A stretch of 64,000 nucleotides of DNA from an uncultured Chloroflexia bacterium (GTDB taxonomy: Bacteria; Chloroflexota; Anaerolineae; Anaerolineales; Anaerolineaceae), in assembly GCA_963810385.1 (NCBI GenBank), contig CAWENA010000003.1, positions 70,646 through 134,645 of the forward strand, given 5' to 3'. The notes beneath the pieces were generated by a model. It searched no databases and had not been told where the DNA came from. It saw only the letters and a program-made list of their open reading frames with translations. Below, in pieces: positions 10,306 through 53,890 of the stretch. Position numbers and translations under genes: made by a program. Position 1 is the stretch's first letter. Every line of letters starts with the position of its first letter.

Positions 10306-11946
10306 ATGACGCAGAAAAGAATTACAGACGATCTTCACATCCTCATGGGTGTTCTTCCACCGGAAATTGCAAATGCGGTTTCTGGAATCAATAACAGCGA
10401 TAATCTGATCGAGATCATCATGGATCTCGGCCGCCCGCCGACTGCTCGATTTGTCAACAGTGAAATTACGCTGTTGGATCGGGAAGTCACCAGTGATGAT
10501 ATCAACGCGGTTGTGAAACACATTGGCGATTTTGATGCGGATAACCGCGCCGGGTTGGAGAGAACACTTCACCGAATTTCCGCTTTAAGAAACCGTCATA
10601 ACCACATCGTCGGTTTAACCTGCCGGGTTGGACGCGCAGTCTATGGCACAATCGATATCATTCAAGATTTGATCGAATCCGGTAAAAGCCTCCTTTTGTT
10701 GGGGAAACCGGGTATTGGAAAGACCACCATGCTGCGCGAAGCTGCCCGTATGATGGCCGAAAAAAACCGGGTCATCATTGTCGATACTTCCAATGAAATT
10801 GGCGGGGATGGCGATGTTCCTCATCCCGCAGTTGGCAAGGCGCGCCGCATGCAGGTCGCCAGGCCTTCTCTGCAGCATGAGGTGATGATTGAAGCGGTAG
10901 AAAATCACAATCCGGAAGTGATTGTCATCGATGAGATCGGGCGTGAGTTGGAAGCCGCTGCAGCCCGCACAATTGCAGAACGCGGTGTCCAACTGATTGG
11001 CACCGCTCATGGTCGCACCCTGGAAAACTTATTATTGAATCCCACCCTGTCTGACCTGATCGGCGGTATCGAATCGGTTACCCTGTCAGATGAAGAAGCC
11101 CGGCGCCGTGGCACCCAGAAAACTGTGCTGGAGCGACGTTCGCCACCCACCTTTGATGTGTTGATCGAGTTATTGGATCGTGATCGGGTGGCGGTCCATG
11201 CGGATGTCGCCTCTGCTGTGGATGCCCTGGTACGTGGTTACCCCGAACCGGCCGAAATTCGCTTCCGCAAGGAAGATGGCAGCATCGGCTCTGAAATGCA
11301 GGCAATCCCCGCTCCTTCTGCAAGCCGTCCTGGCGGCAGACCCGGCAAACGCAATGGCGACTTCGGGAATGAAATTTCTGCCCAGGGATATCGAAGGCAG
11401 GAATCTTCCAGTGGTTATGGAGCAACTCAAAACCCACGGCTGCAGGACAGTAACAATGGAGAGTTGAAACTGCGTCCGGACCAGCCTATTCGCATTTATC
11501 CCTATGGCGTAGCCCGCAACAGGCTCACCCAGGCTGCCAAACGTCTTGGAGTTCCAGCCGTTGTCGTGCGGGATATCGCTGATGCGCAAGCACTTATTAC
11601 CTTGCGGGCATATTATCGTAACCGCCAGGCAACCATCATCAACGCCGAAGATCGCGGCATGCCGGTTTACGTCCTGCGTGCAAATACCGTTACCCAAATG
11701 GAACAGTTCCTGGCCGATATCTTCAACCTGGATAATGAATCTGCCTCATCCGCCAACATGGATGTCACCGTCCAGCAGACCCAGGCAGCCATTGAAGCTG
11801 TGATGAATGGGGAGCGCTTTGTAGATCTACCCCCGGCTGCTGCCACTGTTCGACGTTTGCAACATGAAATTGCCCGTCAGAATGAATTGGTCTCTCAATC
11901 CTATGGAAAGGAACCCTACCGCCGTGTGCGGATCTTCCGGGAATGA
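10306..11946 (+). CDS. AAA-type ATPase with a basic/R3H-like C-terminal region (SpoIIIAA/Ycf45-like)
   Basis: Walker A GKPGIGKTT, Walker B VIVIDEIG, then GTAHG. Long charged linker and a conserved C-terminal domain. Confidence 0.7.
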   Translation: MTQKRITDDLHILMGVLPPEIANAVSGINNSDNLIEIIMDLGRPPTARFVNSEITLLDREVTSDDINAVVKHIGDFDADNRAGLERTLHRISALRNRHNHIVGLTCRVGRAVYGTIDIIQDLIESGKSLLLLGKPGIGKTTMLREAARMMAEKNRVIIVDTSNEIGGDGDVPHPAVGKARRMQVARPSLQHEVMIEAVENHNPEVIVIDEIGRELEAAAARTIAERGVQLIGTAHGRTLENLLLNPTLSDLIGGIESVTLSDEEARRRGTQKTVLERRSPPTFDVLIELLDRDRVAVHADVASAVDALVRGYPEPAEIRFRKEDGSIGSEMQAIPAPSASRPGGRPGKRNGDFGNEISAQGYRRQESSSGYGATQNPRLQDSNNGELKLRPDQPIRIYPYGVARNRLTQAAKRLGVPAVVVRDIADAQALITLRAYYRNRQATIINAEDRGMPVYVLRANTVTQMEQFLADIFNLDNESASSANMDVTVQQTQAAIEAVMNGERFVDLPPAAATVRRLQHEIARQNELVSQSYGKEPYRRVRIFRE

Positions 11947-12590
11947 GCGGCTACTTTATCACCCTCGAAGGGCCGGACGGCAGCGGTAAAACTGGGCAGA
12001 TCCCAGTCCTGGCAGATCATCTGCGTTGCCAGGGATATGACGTACTATGCACCCGTGAACCCGGCGGAACAGAGATAGGGGACCAGGTACGTAAAGTCAT
12101 CATGGACCTCTCCAATAAAGGAATGGATTCCCGAACCGAGATCCTGTTATTCCAGGCATCGCGTGTCCAGATAATTGAACAGGTGATCCGCCCAGCTTTG
12201 AAAGCCGGTAAGGTGGTTATCTGTGACCGTTACGCCGATTCGACCCTGGCATACCAGGGCTACGGTCACCAGACAGATATGGATTTCTTAAACAAACTGT
12301 TACAATTTGTAACCGGCGGATTAAAACCCGATTTGACCATCCTGTTAGACCTGGATGTAGAAGAAGGCTTGAAGCGTAGGCAACGTGGGGGCGGGGAATG
12401 GAACCGCCTCGATGATTATGATGTAGAATTCCACCGTAGAGTGCGAGCTGGATATCAGCAGCTCGTTAATCTTGAAATAGATCGCTGGGAAGTTATTGAC
12501 GCCCGGCAGCCCAAAGGCGCGATCCAAAAGCAGCTACAGGCAATTGTTTCGCAGCGTTTATTGTTATCAACATCTGAAAGGAAAGAATGA
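11943..12590 (+). CDS. tmk: Thymidylate kinase
   Basis: ITLEGPDGSGKTG P-loop and DRY motif. ATGA overlap with the upstream gene. Confidence 0.9.
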   Translation: MSGYFITLEGPDGSGKTGQIPVLADHLRCQGYDVLCTREPGGTEIGDQVRKVIMDLSNKGMDSRTEILLFQASRVQIIEQVIRPALKAGKVVICDRYADSTLAYQGYGHQTDMDFLNKLLQFVTGGLKPDLTILLDLDVEEGLKRRQRGGGEWNRLDDYDVEFHRRVRAGYQQLVNLEIDRWEVIDARQPKGAIQKQLQAIVSQRLLLSTSERKE

Positions 12591-13879
12591 AACGATCCCT
12601 ACCAAAAGCTTTACTCATACTGGTAGCTCTCTCGGTGATATTGGCCGCTTGTATTCCAAGCCCGGCCGCACCCACCGTAGCACCTACCCAGGTGGCAGCA
12701 ACGCTGCCAGCAGTCCAAACCACTGCCGATCCGGCAGCAGCTCCGCCAACCGTATTGCCAACACTTGGACCAGCCGAATGTAAAGCCGGTCTAAGCGCCA
12801 TCCAACCGCCAACAGCAGAGCAGGCAGCCATGGTGGCGAAGGTCCCTCCGGTAAATGCGAATGACCTGGTTCGTGGTCCGGCAGATGCATCAGTTACCAT
12901 CCTGGAATACAGCGATTATCAATGACCATACTGCGCCCAATTTGCTCCCGTGTTGGAGCAACTCCTCAAAGAATTCCCCGATGATCTGCGCACAGTTTTC
13001 CGTCACTTCCCGCTGCCATCCCACGCCAACTCCCTTCTCGCAACTCAGGCCGTGGAAGCCGCCGGGATGCAGGGTAAGCTCTATGAAATGTCCGATCATA
13101 TCTTTGCCAACCAGGCTATCTGGAGTCCAATGGACATATCTGCTTTCGAATCCTGGCTAACGACAGAAGCCGAAACACTGGGCTTAAATAAAGACCAGTT
13201 CGTAAAGGATATGAAGAGTGATGCTGTCGTGGCGAAAGTGCTCGAATATCAAAAGCAGGCAATGGATGCTGGCGTTACCTACACCCCGTTCATCATGGTC
13301 AATGGGCGTATCTGGGAAGGGATCGACCTCCCCAACATGCGGATCCTTGTTCAACTTTTGCGGGAAGATAAAAACCTCTTCCCGGATTGCCCGCCAACCG
13401 TCCTTGGGCCCGGCAGAAAATATACTGCCACCATCGAAACAGAAATTGGCAATATTGTAATGGCATTGAATACAGATCAGGTCCCGTTGTCTGCAAATGC
13501 TTTCGTCTGGTTGGTTCAACAGGGTTGGTATGACAACACAACCTTCTTCAATGTCATGCGCGATGACCCAAGTCAGATCGAGATCGCCCTGACGGGCGAC
13601 CGAACCGAAACAGGGTACGGGACGGCTGGTTTCAGTATTTCACCGGAAATTGTGTCCGACCTCAATTTTACCCAACCGGGTACAGTTGGATTTGTCAATG
13701 GCAACCAATTATTCATTTCCTACAGCGCCCTCCCGAAATTGGATGGTCGCTATACAGTTTTGGGTAACGTGATCGAAGGTATGGATGTCGTCCAGAACCT
13801 AGCTATCACTAAAATTGATGCTGAAGGCCGTTTTTCACCTGGCACCAAGATCATTAAAGTGACCATATCAGAGCAATGA
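12587..13879 (+). CDS. Lipoprotein fusing a DsbA-like thioredoxin-fold domain to a cyclophilin-like domain; one in-frame TGA (12923-12925) at the first position of the xPYC redox motif (selenocysteine candidate, otherwise a nonsense mutation)
   Basis: Track ORFs 12587-12925 and 12950-13879 share one frame. Read-through gives EYSDYQ-[TGA]-PYCAQFAPVLEQL. Signal peptide with lipobox LAAC. The C-terminal half aligns by eye to cyclophilin (QLFISYSALPKLDGRYTVLGNVIEGMDVV). Confidence 0.7.
12942..12961 (+). promoter_or_regulatory. SECIS-like stem-loop downstream of the in-frame TGA
   Basis: TTGCTCC (12942-12948) pairs perfectly with GGAGCAA (12955-12961). The loop is CGTGTT. The stem starts 16 nt after the TGA. 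Confidence 0.4.
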
Positions 13880-15084
13880 TCTCTGGTAGTCAAAAACCTC
13901 ACATTCCAAGCATCGCCCAGTTCGTCCTAAGCGGATTGGGCCTGCTTGCCCTGTGGGGTTTAGCATTGGTCTATGTTGTGATGGGAGTAGTGGATTTCTC
14001 AGCTGCAAACCAAAATTCTCAAACCGCCTCCCTCTTCCTTGTTGCGATAGATTTCTTTGTTCTCGGGTTGCTTGTTTTACCCTCCCTCGTTTTCAGCCTC
14101 ATGCGGATGATCAATCATCCCTTATCCAACCCAATTAGCCGCACACCTCGTTTTCAGCTGGCCATCATTCTACTGTGGCCATTGATCCTATACCTGGGAA
14201 ATCTTTTTATTCAGGCTGAGGACTGGAGCGCCTATCTGTTTCCAGTTACCCAGGTCTTAGCTGTGCTCTTGCTGGTCTATTGGTTTTTTTCCATTGCCAC
14301 CCTGGGGATGATACGAACAAGTCCTCAGCGCAGCTGGGGACTCCTTGCTTCCGGGATGTTTGGCGGTACAGGCCTTTCCATTTTAATAGAACTGCTGGGG
14401 ATTCTGCTTTTACTAATAGGCTTCATCGCGCTCGTAATTCTTATCCCCAGTCTGCAGGATGAGATCAATCGACTTGCAACCCGAATTTCCACGGTTGGCA
14501 ATGATATGGACGCACTGATGCGAATCTTGACTCCATATTTTTCCAAACCCGCAATAATTATCTCCCTGATTCTTTCCACATCCATCATAGTGCCTCTGAT
14601 TGAAGAAGCCTTAAAGCCTGTTGGATTATGGTTCCTTTCCCGCAAAAACCTATCCTCAGCCGAGGGGTTCATGGGAGGGGTCATCAGCGGCGCCGGGTTT
14701 GCCATTGTTGAAAGCCTTTTTAATACAGCCCAGGTGATGGGTGATACCTGGATTCTTGTTTCTTCCATGCGTTTTGGAACAACCCTGATTCATATGCTCG
14801 CTTCCGGGTTGGTAGGCTGGGGTTTGGCAGGCGCTTGGACACAGAGGAAATACCTGCGGCTGGCTGGAGCTTATCTGGGGGCAGTAATATTGCACGGGGG
14901 TTGGAACGCGATGGCTATCTTTTTTTCTGTCAACCAGCTTTCATCAACACAACCGCCTGTGAGCCTGATCTCATCCAGTAAATTATTAATTGTCGGTTTG
15001 GGGGTATGGGCATTGATTGCCTTCATTTTATTACTGTTTGTGAATTCACAGCTTCGCAAATGTAAACCGTTGCCTCTGATTTAA
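13876..15084 (+). CDS. PrsW-family intramembrane protease
   Basis: Polytopic membrane protein with IEEALKP (EExxK), GFAIVESLFN and HGGWN motifs. ATGA overlap with the upstream gene. Confidence 0.7.
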   Translation: MISGSQKPHIPSIAQFVLSGLGLLALWGLALVYVVMGVVDFSAANQNSQTASLFLVAIDFFVLGLLVLPSLVFSLMRMINHPLSNPISRTPRFQLAIILLWPLILYLGNLFIQAEDWSAYLFPVTQVLAVLLLVYWFFSIATLGMIRTSPQRSWGLLASGMFGGTGLSILIELLGILLLLIGFIALVILIPSLQDEINRLATRISTVGNDMDALMRILTPYFSKPAIIISLILSTSIIVPLIEEALKPVGLWFLSRKNLSSAEGFMGGVISGAGFAIVESLFNTAQVMGDTWILVSSMRFGTTLIHMLASGLVGWGLAGAWTQRKYLRLAGAYLGAVILHGGWNAMAIFFSVNQLSSTQPPVSLISSSKLLIVGLGVWALIAFILLLFVNSQLRKCKPLPLI

Positions 15085-15139
15085 TCCACCAAATTTCATG
15101 CTATAATCCCCCACATTAATCCAAATACAAAGGCAGAAC

Positions 15140-15787
15140 ATGCAAATAATCACCTTTCTGATCGACCTGATCCTGCATCTCGATGAACACCTCACTCTAT
15201 TAATCACCCAATTTGGTCCTTGGACATACATGATACTATTCCTTGTGATCTTCATGGAGACCGGGCTGGTCGTTACCCCTTTCCTGCCAGGTGATTCCCT
15301 GCTCTTTGCCGCCGGCGCCCTGGCCGCACTGGATGGCTCCCCGTTGAATGTAGTGCTTCTTTGGGCACTCCTGGCAATTGCAGCCGTAATGGGTGATTCT
15401 GTCAATTATTCCATTGGTAAATATATCGGTCCCAAAGCCTTCACTACAAAATCGCGTCTCTTAAAACAGGAATACCTACTGCACGCCCAGGAATTCTATA
15501 AAAAGCATGGTCGCATCACGATTTTTTTAGCCCGTTTCATTCCGATCATCCGCACGTTCGCTCCATTTGTTGCAGGGATTGGCGAAATGCCCTACGGCTA
15601 CTTCATTAGTTACAACATCATCGGCGGCATAGTATGGACTGTATTGTTCATTTTCGGCGGTTATTTCTTTGGTAACCTGCCTTTCGTCAGGGATAACTTC
15701 TCCATTGTGGTCATCGCCATCATCATCATTTCCTTCCTCCCCGCAGTTTGGGAAGTCATCAAGGCAAAGAGGAAACCTGCTGGGTAA
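15140..15787 (+). CDS. DedA-family membrane protein
   Basis: VTPFLPGDSLLFAAG and RFIPIIRTFAPFVAG motifs. Confidence 0.85.
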   Translation: MQIITFLIDLILHLDEHLTLLITQFGPWTYMILFLVIFMETGLVVTPFLPGDSLLFAAGALAALDGSPLNVVLLWALLAIAAVMGDSVNYSIGKYIGPKAFTTKSRLLKQEYLLHAQEFYKKHGRITIFLARFIPIIRTFAPFVAGIGEMPYGYFISYNIIGGIVWTVLFIFGGYFFGNLPFVRDNFSIVVIAIIIISFLPAVWEVIKAKRKPAG

Positions 15788-24979: not shown

Positions 24980-27900
24980 TTAATGGCGATGGCGCCGCTT
25001 ACCTTTTTTTTCTTGTCCAACCGGCTGTTCCACGGCTTCAACCATCGGCAGAGGCGCTGCAGAGGCGTCATCCTGAACAGATTGGACCACCTGGCGTGGA
25101 CGGTAGGTAAAGGCGCGAGTGATGACCCCGGCGCGGATGTCGCGCAACAGGACGGTGAATAGTTCTGAAGCGCGGCTCTTGTATTGAACCAATGGGTCGC
25201 GCTGGGCATAAGCTTCGAGGCCAATGGAGACGCGCAGCGCTTCAACACGGGTGAGATATTCAACCCATAACTCTGATATGACAGATAGCAGCAGGTGCCG
25301 GTTGATCTCGTTCATCACCTGTTCACCAATGACAAAGCGGGCAGTCTCCTTGCTTTCTTCGGGCCATTCTGCCAGCGGAATCTGCATCAGGCGGGCGGCT
25401 TCCTCTTCCCCCACTTCCACGCCGAAGCGTTTGGTAAAGGTTTCGCCCGGCAAAAGATTCATCTGCGTAAAGCGGGTCCACTCGCTCTGTCCCCACATCT
25501 CACGCATTGAATCGATGGCGCGGCTGAGGTGCTCAAGGACTTCCGGTGTGGTGTTGGCAGCGTTTTGATCCCGCATCATTTTGGCTGCGAGGTATATATA
25601 ATGCAGTCGGGTGGTGGGCATCCAGGCTTGCTTGTGGGTTTTTTTGTCGAACACCATGCGCGCGCCGCGCGTCATCACTTCCATCATCTGGATGGCAAGA
25701 TTTTCGCTTACGGGCGGTTTGTTCAGGCGGTCGATGGCGGTATTGATGTCACGAATGATCTGGCCATTTTCACCGAACAATTTCGCGCGATTGCGTTTGA
25801 AGAGTTCCTCGACCTGGCGCATCAATTCATCGGAGACATCGTTCCAATCCTTGTTCTGCAGGTCCGCCGCTTTGATCGGCAGGTTGTCTTCCAGGCGGCG
25901 GTCGAAAGCCATGATGAGGCGCGTGATGGTGAGTCCGGTGAGCAGGTTGATGATCTGCTCTTCCAGGGGTGCTTTCAGATCCTCGGGGGAATTCGCCAGC
26001 AGTTTCATCTGGTCATTGTTTAATCGAACAGGGATGCCGATGGCAGCTCCCAATTCATCCAACAGTTCGACTGGCCGACGAACATCGGTCTCGTCCCGGT
26101 CGCGCAGGGCGTCAAAAAAGGTTTCCAATCCATCCACGCGTTCGGTGATCTGGTTCTCCAGTGAGAGCTGCTGGGTTTCGATAATACTCCGGGCGGAATC
26201 CACCAATCGCTCCTGCTCGGCATCAAAGGCTTCTTCGGCGATCTGCAGCAGGGACGCTTTCATCGAGGCGTGGTCGCCATCCAGGTCAACGCGGTCCAGT
26301 AGCAGGCGCTGGGTATAGGTTGGATAAAATTCCGAGCCGTACATGATGGCAGGTTGGACGCTTTCAAGATAAGCCAGCAAACGCCACGGGCCTTCCTCAT
26401 CTTTGAGGGCTTCGGGGATGCGTTTGGTGAGTTCGTCGCGGAAGATCTCTGTGACATCCTCGCTCAAGTTCTCCTTGGAGAAAACCCGGTTGCGCTGACC
26501 GTAGATGCGTTCACGCTGGCTGTTCAATACATCATCGTATTCAAGCAAGTGCTTGCGGATGTCAAAGTTGGCGCCTTCGACGCGGGTCTGGGATTGCTCC
26601 ACCAGCCGCCCCACGATACCGCTTTCGATCGGGAGCGATTCGTCCAGTTTGAGACGGCCCATCAGGTCTTCGACCTGACCGCCGCCGAACAGCCGCATCA
26701 ATTCATCCTGCAGGGAGAGGTAGAAACGCGAAGAACCGGGGTCGCCCTGTCGGGCGGCACGGCCGCGCAACTGGTTATCGATGCGGCGGGCTTCATGGCG
26801 TTCCGAGCCTATGACGTGCAATCCACCCAGGTCGCGGACAGACTCCATGTTGTCCATATACTCCAGAACAACTTGCACACCGGCTTCATAGATTCCGTAA
26901 TCGTCAGGTGTCAGTTTTCGCAGGGCTTCCCGGCGGATTTCCATCGTCATGCTGTAAGGATCATCCACGCCGGCCTTGACAAGCGCGCGGTTGGCGTCGC
27001 GCAAGTCTGCCCCATCGAGTTCGCCGCCGAGTTTGATATCGACACCACGGCCGGCCATATTGGTGGCAATGGTCACGGAGCCAAAGGCGCCTGCCTCGGC
27101 GATGATCCTGGATTCCTCGTCGTGGCGGCGGGCGTTCAAAACCTGGTGGGGTACACCGGCCTGGATCACAGTTGCCAATCGCTCGCCGGACTCGGGGGAA
27201 AGCTCCAGAATGCTGAGCAGGCCTGCCAGGTTTTCAGGGTCTTCCGGGTTGAACGAGATCTCCAACTGGCGGGCCAACTGGCGCATCTCGTTGGTGTTCA
27301 GTTCGTCAATGGGTTTGTTCAGGAACAGCAGTTCTTCGATCTCGCGTTCATCGCCTTCGCGCTTGTTCTTCACCAGCCATGTTTGGCGCAGCAGCAGGGT
27401 GAGCAATAAGCGGCGAACAGGTTCCGCCTTCAAACGCAATGACAGGCGTTCTGAATGTTCGACCGAGGTTGTGCCAACCAACTGCGGCCGCCCGATGACG
27501 TAGAAACGCACAATCTCCTGAGTGATGGCGCGCAGTTTGGCTTCCTCGGTTCGATACACAACATCCGGGAAATCCTGCCGGCGCCAGAATACGGGAACCT
27601 TTTCATCTCCATCGCGGCGGGCATAATAGGAGTATTTGTAACCTTTGGAATCCTTGTCGTGGATCTCGATGAGCGGGCTGTTCTCACGGGTGGCGTTATA
27701 TTCCAGGTTCATCGGGATGGGGAGGACGTCCAGTTTATAGATCTTGGCGAACTCCTCGGCTTCGGTGAGCGCGGTACCGGTCATACCGGAAAGTTTTTCA
27801 TACATGCGGAAGTAGTTCTGCAGGGTGATGGTGGCATAGGTGACGTTCTCAGCCTCGACCTTGACGCCTTCCTTGGCTTCGACCGCCTGGTGAAGTCCAT

Positions 27901-28990
27901 CGGACCAGCGGCGGCCGGGCATGAGGCGCCCGGTGAATTCATCTACAATGACGACCTTGCCGCCCTGCACCAGGTATTCCTTGTTCTTTTTGTAGAGATA
28001 CTGGGCACGCAGGGACTGCTCCAGGAAGCCAAGCAAGGATTCTTGTTCGGGGGTGCTGTCTTCCGGGCGGTCCGGATCACCAAGGGACTGCCCGAGGATC
28101 ATTTCCACGTGGACGAGTCCGGCTTCGGTCAGGCTGACGGCGTGATCCTTCTCGTTGATCTCGTAATCTTCCGGGTTCAACTGTTTGACGACCCCGGCCA
28201 TGCGCTGGTACTGCTCGGCGCTTTCGGCGGCGGGGCCGGAGATGATGAGCGGGGTTCGGGCTTCATCGATGAGGATGTTATCGACCTCATCCACGATGGA
28301 ATAGTGATGCCCGCGCTGCACCCGATCTTCGAGGCGCATGGAGGTGTTATCGCGCAGATAGTCGAAGCCGAATTCGCTGTTGGTGCCGTAGGTCATATCC
28401 GCCAGGTAAGCTTCCTGTCGGGGAACCAGGCGCAGTTGATGCTGGTCTTCGTGGGGCGATTCTTTTTCGAGGTCTACAATGAAAGCCATGCGGCCGTTCT
28501 CGGTGCGGTTGGCCATTTGCAAAACGCCGACGGACATTCCCAGGGCGGCAAAAACAGGCGCCATCCAGCGCGCATCCCGGCGGGCGAGGTAATCGTTGAC
28601 TGTGACGAGGTGGGTGCCTTTGCCGGTGAGGGCATTGAGGTAGAGCGGCAGGGTGGCAACGAGGGTTTTACCCTCGCCGGTGCGCATCTCGGCGATGCGT
28701 CCGCTATGGAGGGTGATTCCGCCGACCATCTGCACATCGTAATGACGCAGCCCGATGGTCCGTTTGGAGGCTTCACGCACAGCCGCGAAGGCTTCCGGCA
28801 GCAGTTCATCGAGGGTTTCACCTTCTGCCAGGCGCTCTTTGAATTCGATCGTCTTGGCTTTCAGTTCTTCGAGCGAGAGCTTTTCGTAATCGCTTTCCAA
28901 TGCGTTGATCTCGTCAACGGTCAGGATCATGCGGTCAATTTCTTTTTTGTTCGGGTCGCCGCCCAGGACGCGGATGATATTCTGGAACAT
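24980..28990 (-). CDS. secA: Preprotein translocase ATPase SecA, unusually long at 1336 aa
   Basis: MRTGEGKT Walker A, DEVDNILIDEARTPLIISG, RGRAARQGDPGSSRFYLSLQDELMR, LWVEYLTRVEALRVSIGLEAYAQRDPLVQYK. Large extra segments are present; see the finding at 24980-28990. Confidence 0.95.
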   Translation of the reverse strand: MFQNIIRVLGGDPNKKEIDRMILTVDEINALESDYEKLSLEELKAKTIEFKERLAEGETLDELLPEAFAAVREASKRTIGLRHYDVQMVGGITLHSGRIAEMRTGEGKTLVATLPLYLNALTGKGTHLVTVNDYLARRDARWMAPVFAALGMSVGVLQMANRTENGRMAFIVDLEKESPHEDQHQLRLVPRQEAYLADMTYGTNSEFGFDYLRDNTSMRLEDRVQRGHHYSIVDEVDNILIDEARTPLIISGPAAESAEQYQRMAGVVKQLNPEDYEINEKDHAVSLTEAGLVHVEMILGQSLGDPDRPEDSTPEQESLLGFLEQSLRAQYLYKKNKEYLVQGGKVVIVDEFTGRLMPGRRWSDGLHQAVEAKEGVKVEAENVTYATITLQNYFRMYEKLSGMTGTALTEAEEFAKIYKLDVLPIPMNLEYNATRENSPLIEIHDKDSKGYKYSYYARRDGDEKVPVFWRRQDFPDVVYRTEEAKLRAITQEIVRFYVIGRPQLVGTTSVEHSERLSLRLKAEPVRRLLLTLLLRQTWLVKNKREGDEREIEELLFLNKPIDELNTNEMRQLARQLEISFNPEDPENLAGLLSILELSPESGERLATVIQAGVPHQVLNARRHDEESRIIAEAGAFGSVTIATNMAGRGVDIKLGGELDGADLRDANRALVKAGVDDPYSMTMEIRREALRKLTPDDYGIYEAGVQVVLEYMDNMESVRDLGGLHVIGSERHEARRIDNQLRGRAARQGDPGSSRFYLSLQDELMRLFGGGQVEDLMGRLKLDESLPIESGIVGRLVEQSQTRVEGANFDIRKHLLEYDDVLNSQRERIYGQRNRVFSKENLSEDVTEIFRDELTKRIPEALKDEEGPWRLLAYLESVQPAIMYGSEFYPTYTQRLLLDRVDLDGDHASMKASLLQIAEEAFDAEQERLVDSARSIIETQQLSLENQITERVDGLETFFDALRDRDETDVRRPVELLDELGAAIGIPVRLNNDQMKLLANSPEDLKAPLEEQIINLLTGLTITRLIMAFDRRLEDNLPIKAADLQNKDWNDVSDELMRQVEELFKRNRAKLFGENGQIIRDINTAIDRLNKPPVSENLAIQMMEVMTRGARMVFDKKTHKQAWMPTTRLHYIYLAAKMMRDQNAANTTPEVLEHLSRAIDSMREMWGQSEWTRFTQMNLLPGETFTKRFGVEVGEEEAARLMQIPLAEWPEESKETARFVIGEQVMNEINRHLLLSVISELWVEYLTRVEALRVSIGLEAYAQRDPLVQYKSRASELFTVLLRDIRAGVITRAFTYRPRQVVQSVQDDASAAPLPMVEAVEQPVGQEKKGKRRHRH

Positions 28991-47359: not shown

Positions 47360-48244
47360 TTAATAACGGAAATCGTATATACCATTCACAATTGGCCAAG
47401 GCTTGTTACATATTGCGCAAACCAGCTCAGCCGGTTTTTCGTTTAGTTCCCGACTTCCGCAGATTGGACATTGAAAGAAACCGGTAACAGGAGATGATGC
47501 GGTCCCCTCTTTTCGTGATCTAACAAAAACGCTTGGCGTCAATTGCCAGAGATCTCCTGTAAGTTGGAAGTCTGAATCCAGATGGATCAGGACGGAAAGC
47601 GGTATCAAACGCTTAAAAATAGGAGAGCGCAGGTGAGATACCGTCAGTTGCCTTTCAATATTGAAACCTGCTTTTTCCAGCCAGCTTCTCACTGCGCGCG
47701 GATGAAAATCGAAATTTAATGCTGTAAATTCAACCGGCTCAAGCGCAAACGGATTCCAGCTCTGCTTTTTTAAGAAATAGCGCAGGATCGCTTTTAAATT
47801 TTGTTTATTTGCATATTCAAGGATGAATGTCGCACCCGGTTCGATAACGCGTTCAACCTGTTTCAGTGCCTTCGGGGCATCCGCCATGTGGTGCAATGTG
47901 CGGATCATGGTTGCACCATCAAAAAGATTGTCCACAAAAGGCAAGTGATAGACATCCGCAGCGACGTAAATGTACCTCTCGCTTGTCCCCAGCCGCTCTT
48001 GCGCCTGCTCCAATTGCGTGCGGGAGTAGTCCAGAAGGACAACTTGCTTGAACCCTGCATATCTCGGGGTATTTCTGCCAGCCCCGGCACCTAATTCCAG
48101 CATCAACGCACCAGAACTTGGCAGCATCCGTTTTATGGCAACTGCTTCAACTGCATCTTCATAAGCGCGGCCACCCTGATCCCAGAAGCTGGTCTGGTAA
48201 TCAGAATCGGTGTAATCGCAAACGGGTGGAGTGTCTTTGTTCAT
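47360..48244 (-). CDS. Class I SAM-dependent methyltransferase with a C-terminal Trm112-like zinc ribbon
   Basis: LELGAGAGR motif I. The C-terminus reads CPICGS...CAICNKPWPIVNGIYDF. The start is placed at MNKDTPP; the ORF extends to 48391. Confidence 0.75.
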   Translation of the reverse strand: MNKDTPPVCDYTDSDYQTSFWDQGGRAYEDAVEAVAIKRMLPSSGALMLELGAGAGRNTPRYAGFKQVVLLDYSRTQLEQAQERLGTSERYIYVAADVYHLPFVDNLFDGATMIRTLHHMADAPKALKQVERVIEPGATFILEYANKQNLKAILRYFLKKQSWNPFALEPVEFTALNFDFHPRAVRSWLEKAGFNIERQLTVSHLRSPIFKRLIPLSVLIHLDSDFQLTGDLWQLTPSVFVRSRKEGTASSPVTGFFQCPICGSRELNEKPAELVCAICNKPWPIVNGIYDFRY

Positions 48245-48487
48245 GTGTAAAAAGTGAGTGCGGATAGGTTTCCCGGCGGCACCCGGAATGAGCTCCTTAC
48301 CGCTGCTTCCTCTCGGACCTGACGGGGTTCGAAGCGTTCCGCCGCGCCGGACCCATCCGGCACTCGCGCATAAGGATACCGTAACCGTCAAATACTGTCA
48401 ATTGGAGAAGGCGATGGCTCATGAAAAAAATTGTATAGATTCCAACGGATGTGGTAAAATCGAAAAGCTTAAGAGGTCATCACGAAT

Positions 48488-48572
48488 GGAGGGGTGGCCG
48501 AGAGGCTTAAGGCGCTTGTCTTGAAAACAAGTGTGGGGCAACCCACCGTGGGTTCGAATCCCTCCCCCTCCG
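48488..48572 (+). tRNA. tRNA-Ser (anticodon UGA)
   Basis: Folded by hand. GGAGGGG/CCCCTCC acceptor, 3-bp D stem, CTTGT/ACAAG anticodon stem with loop CU-UGA-AA, long variable arm, TTCGAAT T-loop. One T-T mismatch in the T stem. CCA is not encoded. Confidence 0.85.
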
Positions 48573-48661
48573 CTGGAAGACCGTGTCAGGAGGTTGAATA
48601 TGGGTTCTAACACCATCCTGGCGCTTGTTCCTTCCTCCTTACAAATGAATACCTCGAAATC

Positions 48662-48753
48662 GGGGAGGTGCCAGAGTGGCCGATTGGGCTCGCCTGCTAA
48701 GTGAGTGCTGGGGTGAAACTCAGCCGTGGGTTCAAATCCCACCCTCCCCGCCA
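48662..48753 (+). tRNA. tRNA-Ser (anticodon GCU), CCA encoded
   Basis: GGGGAGG/CCTCCCC acceptor, anticodon loop CU-GCU-AA, long variable arm, GTGGG-TTCAAAT-CCCAC T arm. Confidence 0.9.
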
Positions 48754-51117: not shown

Positions 51118-52517
51118 TCATCCGTGCAGGGTTTCGCTTTTCATCCGGCTGTTAATTGCAGACCATATCACTAATCCATACAACGGAAGGTATTCCACCC
51201 ATGTGAACCAAACAGGAACATCTGCAGTTTGTCCAAGTCCATAAGCCAGGTAGGTAAGGATGACAACCATTGAAAAATATGTGACTGGTATGATCCAATA
51301 AATGATCCTCGGGCGATCATTCCGTGCGGGTATGAAGAATGGGGTGAATGGAATCAGGATGGTGACATACCAGGGATGCACCGTGGGGGAGAGCAATAGA
51401 AATGCGCCGAACGGGAGAAGCGATAACCGAATCAACCTCCGCCCTCTTCTGGCAGGGTCCTCGCCGGATTGGTCAAACCGCCAGGCTTTGATGGTGCTCC
51501 ACGCCAGTACGATTACCAAGGATGCTCCGGCGATCAATCGCACTATCACCCCGATCATTTCTTTCTTGGCATGGAAAAGCTCCGCAATTTTGTAGATCGG
51601 TCCAGCATTGAATTGCCAGTACTGCGAATAGATGCGAATGGCGCCAAATAAGCCGCGGCCGTCCAACTCTCCGAATAACCCCCAGCCAGCGCCTGTTGCA
51701 AATACCGTCAAAGCAGCACTGCTCAACAAGGCAAGAATGATCAGCCCGGCCGCTTTCCAGCGTCGTAACCAGAGCGGGATGATGATTATGGGCAAGCCCT
51801 TTGTCAGAGCAGCCAGTGTCATGGTGATGACCGACAACCAGTGTCTTTATTATTGTTCAAGACCAATAACCAGGAGAGCATTGTCAGGAACATCATCAAG
51901 GCTTCCAGGTGAGCGCCGTGTGCAAATTCAACAATGACCAGCGGATTCCACAGGTAGAGCAATACCGCTTTTGGATCCAGCTTTAATTTAAGCAAAATGA
52001 GATAGACCATCAACCCGGTGAGTAGATCGAAGACCAGAGCAGAGATCTGGTAAGCCTTGATCTGCTGGGGAGCAATGGTTTCCACCAGCCAAAAGTACCC
52101 CTGGGCTGCGGGCAGATAAGGGGATGCCATCCAGGAATGATTTACGCTTTCACGCAAAGACGTATCAAATTGATCCAGCAGTGGGGATTCGACAACTTCA
52201 GCGTACGGATTGATACCCTGCTTTAATAAATGCCCGTCCCATAGATAGCGGTAGCCATCATCGGAAAGGGTGGGGGTTGTGCCTAAAAGGATCAACCGGG
52301 CGATGATCGCCACACCCCAGATAAATTGTAAAGAGATGTGCAGCCTGCGGATGAATATGATCGCAATAATATAAGCCAAAGCAGCCAGGCCGAAACAGAG
52401 GAAGAACCAGTGTAGGTTTTCCCCTCGTAGAGTAGGTAGAAAGAGCAATGGGATGAACGCACCGGAGAGTGTCAAACCCGCTGCCCATACTTTTTGGTCT
52501 GTTCGGGTAAACTTCAC
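51118..52517 (-). pseudogene. Polytopic GT-C-like membrane glycosyltransferase (DUF2029/GT87-like) split into two overlapping ORFs by a frameshift
   Basis: ORFs 51819-52517 and 51118-51837 overlap by 19 nt in different frames, and both are polytopic. The N-terminal ORF has SDDGYRYLWDG..GINPY. The junction lies at AATAATAAAGA. Confidence 0.55.
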
Positions 52518-53203
52518 TTGGTTGGCTTTCGCAAATGGGGATGCATATCAAAGAAGCTGCGTGAATGGACCAATCTGTCTGATGGCAGCATATCCAATTC
52601 CATTGCCAGCCGGGCAGCATCGGAAGCAGTATCCACGTCAAACCAGGCAGGGAGCATTGCAAAACTTAAATGAAGCGATTGCAGCTTTGCAAGTGTTTGC
52701 GCAAGCACCCGTCCGGTGCTCCAATCTATACCGGTGAAAACTTCAGGGATCTCCTTTTTTAATCCGATCAAATAGTACCCGCCATCTTCTCCTGGTCCTA
52801 TCACAGCATCATTTTCGTCAAGCAGTCGGATCGACTGATACAGATATTCCTGAGGCAAAGAAGGGCCATCAGAATTAATGGCCAGTACCTTTTTATGTCC
52901 TTCTTTTAGCAGTATCCCAATGGTTTGGTTCAAACATTGTCCTATATCCCGGCCCCCTACAGGTAATAATCTTGTGCCATCAGGAGATTTTATTTTAAAA
53001 TAAGGTACCGATTGGATGGGGGTGATTGCAACCCCAAATTGGACTCCCGTCACGTTTCCAGCCAGGGCAAATGTATCCAACAACATCGCCTCATAGAAAC
53101 TGGCAGCCTGCTCATAGCTGAAGGGTGGGCAAAGCCTGGTTTTCGTGATGCCCACCTCTGGCATTTTTGCCATGACAACCAGGGCGGTGTCAGGTTGTGT
53201 CAT
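52514..53203 (-). CDS. DUF2064 (TIGR04282-like) nucleotidyl/glycosyl-transferase-like protein
   Basis: VVMAKMPEVGITKTRL opening and DGGYYLIG motif. Confidence 0.75.
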   Translation of the reverse strand: MTQPDTALVVMAKMPEVGITKTRLCPPFSYEQAASFYEAMLLDTFALAGNVTGVQFGVAITPIQSVPYFKIKSPDGTRLLPVGGRDIGQCLNQTIGILLKEGHKKVLAINSDGPSLPQEYLYQSIRLLDENDAVIGPGEDGGYYLIGLKKEIPEVFTGIDWSTGRVLAQTLAKLQSLHLSFAMLPAWFDVDTASDAARLAMELDMLPSDRLVHSRSFFDMHPHLRKPTK

Positions 53204-53890
53204 TCATCCTCCCGCATACTTGAAAATAAGACGGAAGATATGATACGCCGCCAGGAACGTGCCACGAACTGTACCAGTGATCTTTGATTTTCCGCCCATC
53301 CTGGCATGATATGAAACCGGAATTTCTACGATCCTCCATTTTTGAAGGGCTGCCTTGGCGATCATCTCTGTGGGAAATCCATAGGTCATTTCTTCTAGAT
53401 TAAGTCCGATGATCATTTCCCTTTTTCCGGCTCTGAATGGGCTAAGATCAGTGATGGGAAGATGATAGATCAGGCGGAACATGAAAGCAGCCATCACATT
53501 TCCCGTCCATTGGGTCCAGGGCATCGCATTTCTATCCATCTTTCCAGCCAGGCGTGAACCTAACACCAGGTCGGCTTGTCCATTGCTGATCGGAAGTAAT
53601 AGATCTGGCAAATGTCGCGGATCATCCGCCCCGTCCGCGTCCAGAAAGACAACGATTGCCGATCTGGCAGCGAGTAAACCCTTATGACAGGCCATCCCAT
53701 ACCCGCGCCTGGACTCGTGAATCACACAGGCACCCGCTTGTTCAGCAATGGCGACTGTATCATCAGTGGAACCGCCATCCACAACGATGATCTCATTCGC
53801 GCAGTCTCGTGGAATCGAGGAAATGACATAAGCGATACTTTCCGCTTCGTTTAAAGTCGGTATGACAATGCTGGCTTTACCTATTATCAT
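53204..53890 (-). CDS. Family-2 glycosyltransferase (dolichyl-phosphate sugar synthase-like)
   Basis: IVIPTLNE, VVDGGSTD, FLDADG. Confidence 0.85.
   Translation of the reverse strand: MIIGKASIVIPTLNEAESIAYVISSIPRDCANEIIVVDGGSTDDTVAIAEQAGACVIHESRRGYGMACHKGLLAARSAIVVFLDADGADDPRHLPDLLLPISNGQADLVLGSRLAGKMDRNAMPWTQWTGNVMAAFMFRLIYHLPITDLSPFRAGKREMIIGLNLEEMTYGFPTEMIAKAALQKWRIVEIPVSYHARMGGKSKITGTVRGTFLAAYHIFRLIFKYAGG

What the first reader, a model, noticed from the sequence alone, without database searches (positions are those of the whole stretch)
12911..12961. In-frame TGA replaces the first Cys of the CPYC motif in a DsbA-like lipoprotein, with a SECIS-like hairpin: selenocysteine candidate
ORFs 12587-12925 and 12950-13879 share one frame, separated only by TGA at 12923-12925. 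Read-through gives VTILEYSDYQ-[TGA]-PYCAQFAPVLEQLLKEFPDDLRTVFRHFPL. The TGA falls on the nucleophilic Cys of the CxxC motif in DsbA/thioredoxin-fold oxidoreductases, the position where known selenoprotein homologues of thiol oxidoreductases carry Sec (UxxC).

Sixteen nt after the TGA, TTGCTCC (12942-12948) pairs perfectly with GGAGCAA (12955-12961). The loop CGTGTT starts 23 nt after the UGA and contains G/U, which fits the general geometry of bacterial SECIS elements. A protein stopping at the TGA would end inside its own active site.

TGA is an ordinary stop in neighbouring genes (ABC ATPase, tmk, the AAA/R3H gene, this gene's own end), so a reassigned genetic code is unlikely. The alternative is a TGC/TGT-to-TGA nonsense mutation or a base-call error.
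Basis: partly seen in the sequence, partly recalled or inferred. Interest (0 to 1): 0.8.

Follow-up and report, generated by a model that had tools for sequence, protein, structure and literature searches.

The report
Selenocysteine-containing DsbA–cyclophilin lipoprotein gene
An apparent stop codon inside the active site of a secreted disulfide-bond enzyme is almost certainly read as selenocysteine, a well-known kind of recoding, and public annotation has cut this protein family in two because of it.

Summary
TGA 12923-12925 replaces the first Cys of the CxxC motif in one 430-codon gene (12587-13879). The gene encodes a lipoprotein signal peptide, a DsbA-like domain and a cyclophilin domain.

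Among 80 orthologous loci from different Anaerolineae species, 31 carry TGA (never TAA or TAG) at exactly this codon. Another 41 carry TGC/TGT and 8 carry other residues.

All 32 TGA forms keep the 7-bp hairpin 16 nt downstream, and none of the 49 non-TGA forms has it intact. Four of its 7 pairs show compensatory changes, the loop (CGUGNU) is frozen at synonymous sites, and it meets every criterion of the published bacterial SECIS model. Codons on both sides of the TGA evolve as coding sequence. TGA is an ordinary stop for 17 of 56 window genes.

Selenocysteine machinery could not be checked, because only the window and ±10 kb flanks of relatives were readable. The literature reports SelA/B/D in Anaerolinea thermophila.

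DsbA-like and DsbG-like UxxC selenoproteins are already known. This is therefore a new, systematically mis-annotated member of a known kind, not a new mechanism.

The parts
12587..13879 (+). Complete selenoprotein gene: 430 codons including Sec113, ending at its own TGA stop (13877-13879). It encodes a pre-lipoprotein of about 46 kDa.
   Evidence: One frame, interrupted only by TGA 12923. Pfam finds the DsbA-like and cyclophilin domains across the read-through. The full-length Cys homologue P0001 (429 aa, 71% identical) covers 100% of it.
12587..12652 (+). Lipoprotein signal peptide MKRSLPKALLILVALSVILAAC, with lipobox L-A-A-C (Cys22 at 12650-12652).
   Evidence: Read directly from the translation. 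Every TGA-form locus with a complete 5' end keeps an upstream ORF with a hydrophobic signal and an L-x-[AGS]-C lipobox. Cys22 is nearly invariant in the full-length alignment.
12857..13327 (+). DsbA-like thioredoxin-fold domain (residues about 91-247).
   Evidence: PF13462 at 4.5e-22 and PF01323 at 3.3e-17, both above their gathering scores. The model of P0001 matches DsbA, BdbD and ScsC structures with target TM-scores of 0.66-0.79.
12923..12925 (+). In-frame UGA, proposed selenocysteine codon (residue 113).
   Evidence: It aligns with the first Cys of CxxC in 41 orthologues and with TGA in 31 of 80 species loci, never with TAA or TAG. L083-L086 also carry TGA here.
12923..12934 (+). Redox motif U-P-Y-C.
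   Evidence: Translation. In the P0001 model the equivalent Cys112 sits at the N-terminal end of helix 113-128.
12942..12961 (+). Bacterial SECIS hairpin: stem 12942-12948 with 12955-12961 (7 bp), loop CGUGUU 12949-12954.
   Evidence: 98.7% of cells are paired and 4 of 7 pairs show compensatory changes; 0 of 500 shuffles reach the covariation score. RNAalifold finds the same helix. It is 6-7/7 paired in all 32 TGA forms and never 7/7 in 49 non-TGA forms. Third-codon-position divergence is 0.18 here against 0.55-0.63 in the flanks. It meets the bSECIS model criteria.
13427..13864 (+). Cyclophilin-type domain (residues about 281-426). In this subclade the canonical catalytic Arg is missing (FFN instead of FHR).
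   Evidence: PF00160 at 2.2e-23. PDB sequence alignment to S. pombe ppi1. Foldseek matches to cyclophilins with target TM-scores of about 0.8.
13876..15084 (+). Context: PrsW-family intramembrane protease gene whose start overlaps the stop of the selenoprotein gene.
   Evidence: PF13367 at 1.4e-14. It lies directly downstream in 62 of 80 loci and in L083, L085, L086 and L088.
15140..15787 (+). Context: DedA/VTT-domain membrane protein gene, third gene of the conserved cluster.
   Evidence: PF09335 at 3e-21. It is adjacent on the same strand in 44 of 80 loci.

Best explanation
Window 12587-13879 is a single gene for an exported (seleno)lipoprotein. Translation starts at ATG 12587. When the ribosome reaches UGA 12923, the hairpin 16 nt downstream (a bacterial SECIS lying inside the coding sequence) is bound by SelB·GTP·Sec-tRNA(Sec). 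Selenocysteine is inserted instead of termination, and translation continues to the ordinary TGA stop at 13877.

The product is exported and lipid-anchored at Cys22 on the outer face of the cytoplasmic membrane. It carries a DsbA-like thiol:disulfide oxidoreductase domain whose nucleophilic active-site residue is Sec (U-P-Y-C), fused to a cyclophilin-like domain. It probably acts on secreted proteins as a folding catalyst.

Shown: the anatomy, the conservation of TGA and hairpin, coding-type evolution on both sides of the TGA, and the domain folds.

Inferred: SelB-dependent Sec insertion, export and lipidation, and the substrate and direction of the redox reaction.
For: 1. TGA aligns with the catalytic Cys. 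Of 80 orthologous loci from distinct Anaerolineae species, 31 have TGA, 41 have TGC/TGT and 8 have other residues; none has TAA or TAG. Further TGA forms come from NCBI and JGI contigs.

2. These are orthologues, not paralogues. The same neighbours (tmk upstream, prsW and dedA downstream) flank both Sec and Cys forms.

3. The hairpin tracks the TGA. All 7 pairs form in 29 of 32 TGA forms and 6 of 7 in the other 3; no non-TGA form has all 7.

4. The hairpin covaries. Of paired cells, 98.7% form standard pairs. Four of 7 pairs show compensatory changes: GC/UA split 22/10 at one pair; CG, AU, UA and UG at another. No shuffle of 500 reaches the score, and slid controls give 26-56% paired. A synonymous Ala third position covaries with the second position of a Glu/Ala codon.

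5. The loop is frozen at synonymous sites. CCC and GTG are invariant in all 32 TGA forms, although each makes up only 34% of Pro or Val codons elsewhere in the same genes. Third-position divergence is 0.18 in the hairpin against 0.55-0.63 in the flanks.

6. It meets all four bSECIS criteria quoted in PMC13188914: a 6-nt loop, a 7-bp stem, G followed by U at loop positions 2-3, 23 nt between UGA and loop, and MFE -9.8 kcal/mol.

7. Both sides of the TGA are coding. Third-position divergence is in excess upstream (0.35/0.29/0.60 for positions 1/2/3) and in the five codons between the TGA and the annotated start (0.21/0.21/0.55). The upstream ORF with signal peptide and lipobox is kept in all complete TGA loci.

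8. TGA is otherwise a stop: in 17 of 56 window genes, and as the terminal stop of this same gene in 12 of the TGA-form orthologues.

9. The closest Cys form (71% identical) keeps a relic of the stem but has lost the loop Gs.

10. The Sec trait exists in the class. Anaerolinea thermophila UNI-1 is listed as SelD+, SelA+ and SelB+ with 4 selenoproteins (PMC5029168 supplement). Anaerolineales single-cell genomes have Sec-containing formate dehydrogenases and SelB (PMC4959059).

11. UxxC DsbA-like and DsbG-like selenoproteins are an established class (PMC1088965; PMC13188914).
Against: - No tRNA-Sec was found. No SelA, SelB or SelD homologue was found by tblastn with the E. coli proteins or by Pfam annotation of the window. 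This covers only 64 kb plus about 1.3 Mb of flanks from 80 genomes, so it says little.
- The hairpin alone is not thermodynamically unusual and matches no Rfam family.
- All TGA forms come from metagenome-assembled genomes or metagenomes. The three cultured relatives in the set (Bellilinea, Levilinea, Longilinea) carry Cys.
- There is no experimental evidence of selenium incorporation.
Confidence: 0.88

Rival explanations
1. The TGA is a nonsense mutation, pseudogene lesion or sequencing error in what should be a CxxC gene.
For: A single base separates TGA from TGC/TGT. The window comes from an uncultured organism. One relative (L006) does carry a frameshift further downstream.
Against: The same TGA occurs in 31 of 80 independent species-level genomes from many studies and sequencing platforms, and in further NCBI and JGI contigs. 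Protein identity to the window falls as low as 36%. The reading frame, signal peptide and active-site remainder are preserved on both sides. A dedicated hairpin co-occurs with the TGA.
Confidence: 0.01
2. UGA terminates translation and the locus yields two products, as public annotation has it: a roughly 112-residue lipoprotein fragment, and a 309-residue 'peptidylprolyl isomerase' started at GTG 12950. The hairpin would serve some other role, such as translational coupling or mRNA stability.
For: Gene callers produce exactly this split. At least 41 of 120 homologue clusters are called as proteins of about 309-319 aa. One is MBE9524461.1, named 'peptidylprolyl isomerase'. Small upstream ORFs are called separately.
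Against: - The truncated product would lack both its signal peptide and the redox motif, and would start inside the thioredoxin fold, within helix 113-128 of the model.
- The codons between the TGA and the putative start (P-x-C-A-x) evolve as coding sequence and keep the resolving Cys.
- The putative start is GTG in the window and in every aligned TGA form, because it is the invariant Val codon of the SECIS loop.
- Cys-form orthologues at the same chromosomal position are single 410-440 aa proteins.
Confidence: 0.05
3. UGA is read through without the selenocysteine system, for example by near-cognate tRNA-Trp, tRNA-Cys or tRNA-Arg, or by a suppressor tRNA. The hairpin would act as a read-through stimulator, so residue 113 would be a standard amino acid.
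For: The Sec machinery was not seen in the sequence available. Downstream structures can stimulate read-through in other systems (general knowledge).
Against: - The position is the nucleophilic Cys of a CxxC, where only Cys or Sec is expected to work and where known selenoproteins carry Sec.
- The hairpin has the geometry and the loop G-U of the bSECIS model.
- The Sec machinery is documented in Anaerolineae.
- TGA is a normal stop elsewhere, including at the end of this same gene.
Confidence: 0.05

Closest known systems
DsbA-like selenoproteins (UxxC; PF01323), first predicted in the Sargasso Sea metagenome and later found in 41 bacterial genomes
   Same: A thioredoxin-fold DsbA-type domain with Sec replacing the first Cys of CxxC, a bSECIS directly downstream of the UGA, and widespread Cys homologues (PMC1088965; PMC5029168; PMC13188914).
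   Different: The original family was assigned to COG2761. This one scores best on PF13462 (Thioredoxin_4), is a lipoprotein and carries a C-terminal cyclophilin domain. No prolyl isomerase or cyclophilin architecture appears in the text of the 2026 catalogue of prokaryotic selenoproteins.
NCBIfam NF041057, 'Rcas_1661 family thioredoxin-like (seleno)lipoprotein', listed as 'DsbG-like protein, UxxC' in PMC13188914
   Same: It is the best NCBIfam hit and covers the signal peptide plus the whole redox domain (residues 12-246 against model positions 2-234 of 247). Both are thioredoxin-like lipoproteins with Sec/Cys alternation, and the family is named after a Chloroflexi gene.
   Different: The window protein scores 87 bits, and five other family members score 75-92 bits, against a cut-off of 190. 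It is therefore not a member. NF041057 is a single-domain model of about 247 positions, whereas this family adds about 180 residues of cyclophilin.
Extracytoplasmic DsbA-type oxidoreductases: B. subtilis BdbD, Wolbachia alpha-DsbA1, C. diphtheriae DsbA and ScsC
   Same: The fold matches: Foldseek target TM-scores of 0.66-0.79 and E-values of 1e-10 to 7e-9. The CxxC sits at the helix N-terminus, the cis-Pro loop (T-P) is present, and the protein is located outside the cytoplasm.
   Different: All of these use Cys, and none is fused to a PPIase. Sequence identity is only 19-25%.
E. coli fdhF-type bacterial SECIS and the consensus bSECIS model (bSECISearch)
   Same: A stem-loop inside the coding region just after the UGA. 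The small apical loop has G followed by U near its 5' side, the UGA-to-loop spacing falls within 16-37 nt, and MFE is at or below -7.5 kcal/mol.
   Different: No sequence similarity is expected or seen, and no Rfam family matches. A distant member of this family (L083) uses a different hairpin that starts 8 nt after the UGA.

Membership tests
Bacterial selenoprotein gene (Sec-UGA plus bSECIS) | In-frame UGA aligned with a conserved, catalytically important Cys in homologues (Cys/Sec pair) | tested here: met
   41 orthologues have TGC/TGT at the codon where the window has TGA, and it is the first Cys of CxxC.
Bacterial selenoprotein gene (Sec-UGA plus bSECIS) | TGA-containing orthologues in other organisms at the same codon | tested here: met
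   31 of 80 species-level loci, plus L083-L086. The stop is always TGA.
Bacterial selenoprotein gene (Sec-UGA plus bSECIS) | bSECIS model: 3-9 nt apical loop, 4-16 bp stem, G in the first two loop positions, 16-37 nt from UGA to loop, MFE <= -7.5 kcal/mol | tested here: met
   Loop CGUGUU (6 nt, G at position 2 followed by U), 7-bp stem, 23-nt spacing, -9.8 kcal/mol. The criteria are quoted from PMC13188914.
Bacterial selenoprotein gene (Sec-UGA plus bSECIS) | Hairpin conserved by selection on RNA structure (covariation) and linked to the TGA | tested here: met
   Four of 7 pairs show compensatory changes, 98.7% of cells are paired, and 0 of 500 shuffles reach the score. The hairpin is present in 32 of 32 TGA forms and intact in 0 of 49 non-TGA forms. 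Synonymous sites are constrained.
Bacterial selenoprotein gene (Sec-UGA plus bSECIS) | selA, selB, selD and tRNA-Sec present in the same genome | not testable with these tools
   None was found in the 64-kb window or in 1.3 Mb of flanking loci, but whole genomes could not be read. The literature reports SelD, SelA and SelB in Anaerolinea thermophila and SelB plus Sec-containing formate dehydrogenase in Anaerolineales single-cell genomes.
Bacterial selenoprotein gene (Sec-UGA plus bSECIS) | Selenium demonstrated in the protein (75Se labelling or mass spectrometry) | not testable with these tools
   This needs an experiment.
DsbA-like thioredoxin-fold oxidoreductase (PF01323 / PF13462) | Pfam match above the gathering score | tested here: met
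   PF13462 scores 79.4 bits (cut-off 23.2) and PF01323 scores 63.3 bits (cut-off 25.6).
DsbA-like thioredoxin-fold oxidoreductase (PF01323 / PF13462) | CxxC at the N-terminus of helix alpha-1, a cis-Pro loop, and a helical insertion in the thioredoxin fold | tested here: met
   In the model of the 71%-identical Cys form, Cys112 lies immediately before helix 113-128, helices span 148-226, and the invariant Pro233 (T-P) precedes strand 234-237. Foldseek matches DsbA, BdbD and ScsC structures.
NCBIfam NF041057, Rcas_1661 family thioredoxin-like (seleno)lipoprotein ('DsbG-like' selenoprotein) | Whole-protein score at or above the curated cut-off of 190 bits | tested here: not met
   The window protein scores 87 bits, and five other TGA-form members score 74.8-92.4 bits.
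Cyclophilin-type peptidyl-prolyl isomerase (PF00160) | Pfam match above the gathering score and a cyclophilin fold | tested here: met
   83.7 bits against a cut-off of 21.7. Foldseek target TM-scores are about 0.8 to cyclophilin structures.
Cyclophilin-type peptidyl-prolyl isomerase (PF00160) | Canonical catalytic residues, i.e. the Arg of the F-H-R motif and the Q-G-G-D segment (general knowledge of cyclophilin A) | tested here: not met
   The window protein has FFN where S. pombe ppi1 has FHR, and IALTGD where ppi1 has IQGGD (alignment). Most other family members keep FHRV..PGF.AQ.GDP (consensus). PPIase activity of the window protein is therefore doubtful.

The most novel reading that the evidence does not exclude
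Sec may be the ancestral state of an Anaerolineae-wide extracytoplasmic folding catalyst (DsbA-like domain plus cyclophilin). In that case it was replaced by Cys many times independently at one orthologous locus, which would make a replicated natural experiment on Sec/Cys exchangeability.

The conserved dsbA::cyp - prsW - dedA cluster would then be a dedicated envelope protein-folding and quality-control module that uses selenium outside the cytoplasm of mostly anaerobic bacteria.

Supporting points are that Sec and Cys forms are interleaved on a neighbour-joining tree, that one homologous SECIS is shared across the tree, and that the closest Cys form keeps a decayed SECIS relic.
Probability: 0.35. 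Interest if true: 0.6.

Novelty: new member of a known kind. Interest (0 to 1): 0.45.

Why it matters
1. Annotation. A whole protein family in Anaerolineae is split in public databases into a small 'hypothetical' ORF and a truncated 'peptidylprolyl isomerase' (for example MBE9524461.1). At least 41 of the 120 closest homologue clusters are such truncations. The curated NCBIfam selenoprotein model nearest to it (NF041057) does not reach its cut-off, so automatic pipelines will keep missing the family.

2. Biology. It adds an exported, lipid-anchored selenoprotein with a DsbA-cyclophilin architecture to the selenoproteome of an abundant, mostly uncultured class. I did not find this architecture in the 2026 catalogue text.

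3. Evolution and RNA. The 32 aligned SECIS elements, with clean covariation and perfect linkage to the TGA, are a good test set for bSECIS models. The interleaved Sec and Cys orthologues are useful for studying why Sec is kept or lost.

The mechanism itself is textbook, so a specialist would not be surprised.

Tried and rejected
- Single-sequence folding of 12923-12990 gives z = -0.07, so it is not evidence on its own.
- Rfam gave no SECIS-type match at gathering thresholds, and a permissive scan of 12880-13020 returned only chance hits to lncRNA families.
- ARAGORN on the window and all loci found no tRNA-Sec.
- tblastn with E. coli SelD, SelA and SelB against the window plus 80 loci gave no hits. 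This is uninformative because only about 1.3 Mb of flanks was covered.
- Pfam annotation of 50 window ORFs found no sel genes.
- A scan of the window for other genes split by an in-frame TGA found only neighbouring same-frame genes and short chance ORFs; none was followed up with homology searches.
- A brute-force tblastn screen of all TGA-interrupted frames in the loci was swamped by off-frame shadows of conserved genes and abandoned. Only the DsbA codon showed a Cys/TGA pattern.
- A pattern search (in-frame TGA, NGTGNT loop, stem of at least 6 bp) over 1.4 Mb found 30 instances in this gene and one in-frame TGA at L024:611 with only 42 and 34 open codons on either side, which I did not examine further. 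No second selenoprotein gene with this SECIS type is in hand.
- Exact-sequence look-ups failed to name the window's own assembly. P0002 is not on record, and the tmk protein is found only in a Logan run and an unshown contig of more than 1 Mb.
- The listing of cluster members rejects 'U' in a sequence, so I could not ask whether a Sec-annotated full-length entry exists.
Full report
**1. The observation**

- TGA occupies 12923-12925.
- ORF 12587-12925 (112 codons) and ORF 12950-13879 (309 codons) share one frame and are separated only by that TGA.
- Read-through gives ...VTILEYSDYQ-[TGA]-PYCAQFAPVLEQLLKEFPDDLR....
- TTGCTCC (12942-12948) pairs perfectly with GGAGCAA (12955-12961) around the loop CGTGTT. 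The stem starts 16 nt after the TGA and the loop 23 nt after it.

With Cys substituted for the stop, Pfam finds a Thioredoxin_4/DSBA domain at residues 91-247. The TGA falls on the first Cys of its CxxC. A cyclophilin-type domain follows at residues 281-426. The N-terminus, MKRSLPKALLILVALSVILAAC, is a lipoprotein signal peptide with an L-A-A-C lipobox.

On this one sequence the hairpin is unremarkable: -9.8 kcal/mol, z = -0.07, and 91 of 200 shuffles fold as well. It matches no Rfam family. The case therefore rests on comparison with relatives.

**2. The first clue from relatives**

A protein search with the read-through sequence returned two kinds of homologue. One kind is full-length, 410-440 aa, and covers the whole query. 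The other kind, a large class, is about 309-319 aa and covers exactly 72% of the query. Members of the second class start at MLEQLL, VLEQLL, MLAQL and similar sequences, which is just after the CxxC.

At least 41 of the 120 listed clusters are truncated in this way. One is in NCBI nr as MBE9524461.1, 'peptidylprolyl isomerase'. Gene callers stop and restart around an in-frame stop in just this pattern.

**3. The TGA is conserved**

I fetched 80 loci from different species-level genomes, all but one titled as Chloroflexota (mostly Anaerolineae); one short contig (L032) sits in a MAG labelled Verrucomicrobiota. I then read the codon aligned with the first Cys.
- 31 loci carry a stop there, and in every case it is TGA.
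- 41 loci carry TGC or TGT.
- 8 loci carry other residues and have a degenerate motif.

The TGA forms range from 78% down to about 36% protein identity to the window. Three further truncated database proteins were traced to their contigs (L083-L086). All have TGA at the same codon, and gene callers had split each gene into a 90-115 aa ORF plus the truncated protein.

The upstream frame stays open for 81-166 codons in every TGA locus that is not cut off at its 5' end by the contig (L053 starts two codons before the TGA). Wherever the 5' end is complete, it encodes a signal peptide with an L-x-[AGS]-C lipobox.

Both Sec and Cys forms sit in the same gene order. tmk lies upstream in 33 loci, a PrsW-family protease gene directly downstream in 62, and a DedA/VTT gene after that in 44. 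They are therefore orthologues at one chromosomal position.

**4. The hairpin belongs to the TGA**

An ungapped alignment of the 60 nt from the TGA in all 32 TGA forms shows the 7-bp helix in every sequence.
- 98.7% of cells form standard pairs.
- Four of 7 pairs show changes on both sides: G-C/U-A split 22/10 at one pair; C-G, A-U, U-A and U-G at another.
- No shuffle of 500 reaches the covariation score. Sliding the 3' arm by 1-3 columns drops pairing to 26-56%.
- RNAalifold predicts the same helix independently.

One covarying pair joins the synonymous third position of an Ala codon to the second position of a Glu/Ala codon, so a silent change tracks an amino-acid change. That makes sense only for RNA pairing.

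The loop codons CCC-GUG are invariant in all 32 TGA forms. Elsewhere in the same genes, CCC and GTG each make up only 34% of Pro and Val codons.

Mean pairwise divergence at third codon positions is 0.18 in the hairpin codons. It is 0.60 upstream of the TGA, 0.55 in the five codons just after it, and 0.63 further downstream. The excess at third positions on both sides of the TGA also shows that both sides are translated in this frame.

In the 49 non-TGA orthologues, none can form all seven pairs and only two form six. The closest Cys form (P0001, 71% identical) keeps six pairs but has the loop UAUUUU with no G. That looks like a decaying relic.

A pattern search for this arrangement over about 1.4 Mb, both strands, recovered 30 instances in this gene and one spurious hit.

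**5. Fit to the known model**

The published consensus for bacterial SECIS elements (PMC13188914) has four criteria. The window hairpin meets all of them.

| Criterion | Window hairpin |
|---|---|
| Apical loop of 3-9 nt | 6 nt (CGUGUU) |
| Stem of 4-16 bp | 7 bp |
| G, usually followed by G or U, in the first two loop positions | G at position 2, followed by U |
| 16-37 nt between UGA and loop | 23 nt |
| MFE <= -7.5 kcal/mol | -9.8 kcal/mol |

TGA is not reassigned. It ends 17 of 56 likely genes in the window. It also ends this same gene in the window and in 11 of the other TGA-form orthologues, with no such hairpin behind it. Decoding therefore depends on context, as in Sec insertion.

**6. 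What could not be shown**

I could not read whole genomes.
- There is no tRNA-Sec in the window or the loci.
- There is no SelA, SelB or SelD homologue by tblastn with the E. coli proteins.
- No sel gene appears among 50 annotated window ORFs.

With only 64 kb plus ±10 kb around one gene in 80 genomes, this is not evidence of absence.

The literature supplies the background. Anaerolinea thermophila UNI-1 is listed as SelD+, SelA+ and SelB+ with four selenoproteins (PMC5029168 supplementary tables). Anaerolineales single-cell genomes have Sec-containing formate dehydrogenases and SelB (PMC4959059).

All TGA forms seen here come from MAGs or metagenomes. The three cultured species in the set carry Cys.

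**7. The protein**

An AlphaFold model of the 71%-identical Cys form has mean pLDDT 88.6 and pTM 0.79. It shows a disordered linker after the lipobox, followed by two domains.
- The first is a DsbA-type thioredoxin fold. The first Cys lies immediately before helix 113-128, a helical insertion spans 148-226, and the invariant T-P (cis-Pro loop) precedes strand 234-237.
- The second is a cyclophilin barrel.

Foldseek matches Wolbachia alpha-DsbA1, BdbD, ScsC and C. diphtheriae DsbA for the first domain, and many cyclophilins for the second.

The inferred function is an extracytoplasmic, membrane-anchored thiol:disulfide oxidoreductase whose attacking residue is Sec, coupled to a prolyl-isomerase-like module. 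In other words, it would be a folding catalyst for exported proteins. The direction of the reaction (oxidase, reductase or isomerase) and the redox partner are unknown.

In the window's own subclade the cyclophilin domain has FFN in place of the canonical FHR, and it has lost other conserved segments. Most other family members keep them. The window protein may therefore bind peptides without isomerising them.

**8. Comparison with what is known**

UxxC selenoprotein homologues of DsbA have been predicted since the Sargasso Sea analysis (PMC1088965). They were later counted in 41 bacterial genomes (PMC5029168).

The nearest curated model is NCBIfam NF041057, 'Rcas_1661 family thioredoxin-like (seleno)lipoprotein'. 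The 2026 review lists it as 'DsbG-like protein, UxxC'. The window protein aligns to it from signal peptide to the end of the redox domain, but it scores 87 bits against a cut-off of 190. Five other members score 75-92 bits.

The window protein is therefore related to that family but not a member, which explains why annotation pipelines miss it. The 2026 catalogue text contains no cyclophilin, prolyl isomerase or PF13462 entry.

I file the finding as a new member of a known kind. The recoding mechanism and the UxxC thioredoxin-fold theme are standard. The DsbA-cyclophilin lipoprotein architecture and its Anaerolineae-wide distribution appear not to have been described.

**9. Rival explanations**

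- **Nonsense mutation or sequencing error.** This is excluded by the conservation across genomes.
- **Two separate products, as annotated.** This is contradicted on several counts. The codons between the TGA and the putative start evolve as coding sequence. The truncated product would lose its signal peptide and active site and would begin inside the fold. The 'start' GTG is simply the invariant Val codon of the SECIS loop.
- **Read-through without Sec.** Without the genome or an experiment this cannot be excluded formally. It fits poorly with a catalytic Cys position and a hairpin that meets the bSECIS consensus.

I put the selenoprotein reading at about 0.88.

**10. Evolution**

On a neighbour-joining tree, Sec and Cys forms are interleaved (no support values, so this is indicative only). 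The SECIS sits at the same position with the same loop across the tree, so one origin followed by repeated Sec-to-Cys replacement is the simplest reading.

A distant TGA form (L083) has a different hairpin that starts 8 nt after the UGA. The element has therefore been remodelled at least once.

Noticed in passing
L015:9974-10033 (OY969578.1, complete chromosome): This TGA form has U-P-G-S: the resolving Cys of the motif is replaced by Ser, while the UGA and the SECIS hairpin are intact. It would be a UxxS active site within an otherwise UxxC family.
   Followed up: no
L083:2983-3042 (GCA_029935855.1, 36% identical): This locus has TGA at the same codon but a different, stronger hairpin, GCGCGGC-GAUGGAA-GCCGCGC, starting 8 nt after the UGA. 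The whole 60-nt stretch folds at -25.4 kcal/mol, and that fold also includes a second small hairpin. It would be a second SECIS type in the same protein family.
   Followed up: partly
L087:968-2257 (JGI metagenome contig, protein P0001): This is the closest Cys-form relative (71% identical). It keeps 6 of 7 stem pairs, but its loop is UAUUUU with no G. It looks like a decaying SECIS after a recent Sec-to-Cys change.
   Followed up: partly
L006:9974-10960: This TGA-form orthologue has a +1 frameshift about 158 codons after the Sec codon, and the rest of the protein continues in another frame. It is either an assembly error or a pseudogene.
   Followed up: no
window 13427-13864: The cyclophilin domain of the window protein and its subclade has FFN for the canonical FHR, IALTGD for (A/I)QGGD, and a deletion in the MANAGPNTNGSQFF segment. 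More distant family members keep these motifs. The PPIase may be catalytically dead in this subclade.
   Followed up: partly
window 10306-15787: The gene order R3H/AAA ATPase - tmk - dsbA::cyclophilin - prsW (start overlaps the stop) - dedA/VTT is conserved. PrsW follows in 62 of 80 loci and DedA in 44 of 80. A functional link between the foldase, an intramembrane protease and a DedA protein is suggested but untested.
   Followed up: partly
window 12776-12778 and about 13388-13390 (Cys64 and Cys268 of the read-through protein): Two further Cys residues outside the active site are nearly invariant in full-length homologues (C64 and C267 in P0001 numbering). One lies in the N-terminal segment and one in the linker before the cyclophilin domain. 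They may form a structural disulfide.
   Followed up: no
L041, L043, L059, L067 (codon aligned with window 12923): Some orthologues have lost the redox motif altogether (DNRS, DTSS, SPAS, GGGE) yet keep the rest of the protein and its genomic position.
   Followed up: no
window 24980-28990 (-): This SecA homologue is 1336 aa, far longer than typical SecA proteins (about 900 aa, from general knowledge), and its Pfam domains are split by insertions.
   Followed up: no
window 51118-53890 (-): Four tandem same-strand genes of about 230 aa have overlapping or abutting stops and starts. One abutting pair (52514-53203 and 53204-53890) shares a frame and is separated by a TGA. At least one is a family-2 glycosyltransferase. 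I read them as separate genes, not as a read-through candidate.
   Followed up: partly
window 48259-48753: A bacterial SRP RNA (-) and two tRNA-Ser genes (+) lie here. The mechanical ORF 48419-48742 (-), and the N-terminal part of ORF 47360-48391 (-), overlap these RNA genes and are probably not real coding sequence.
   Followed up: no
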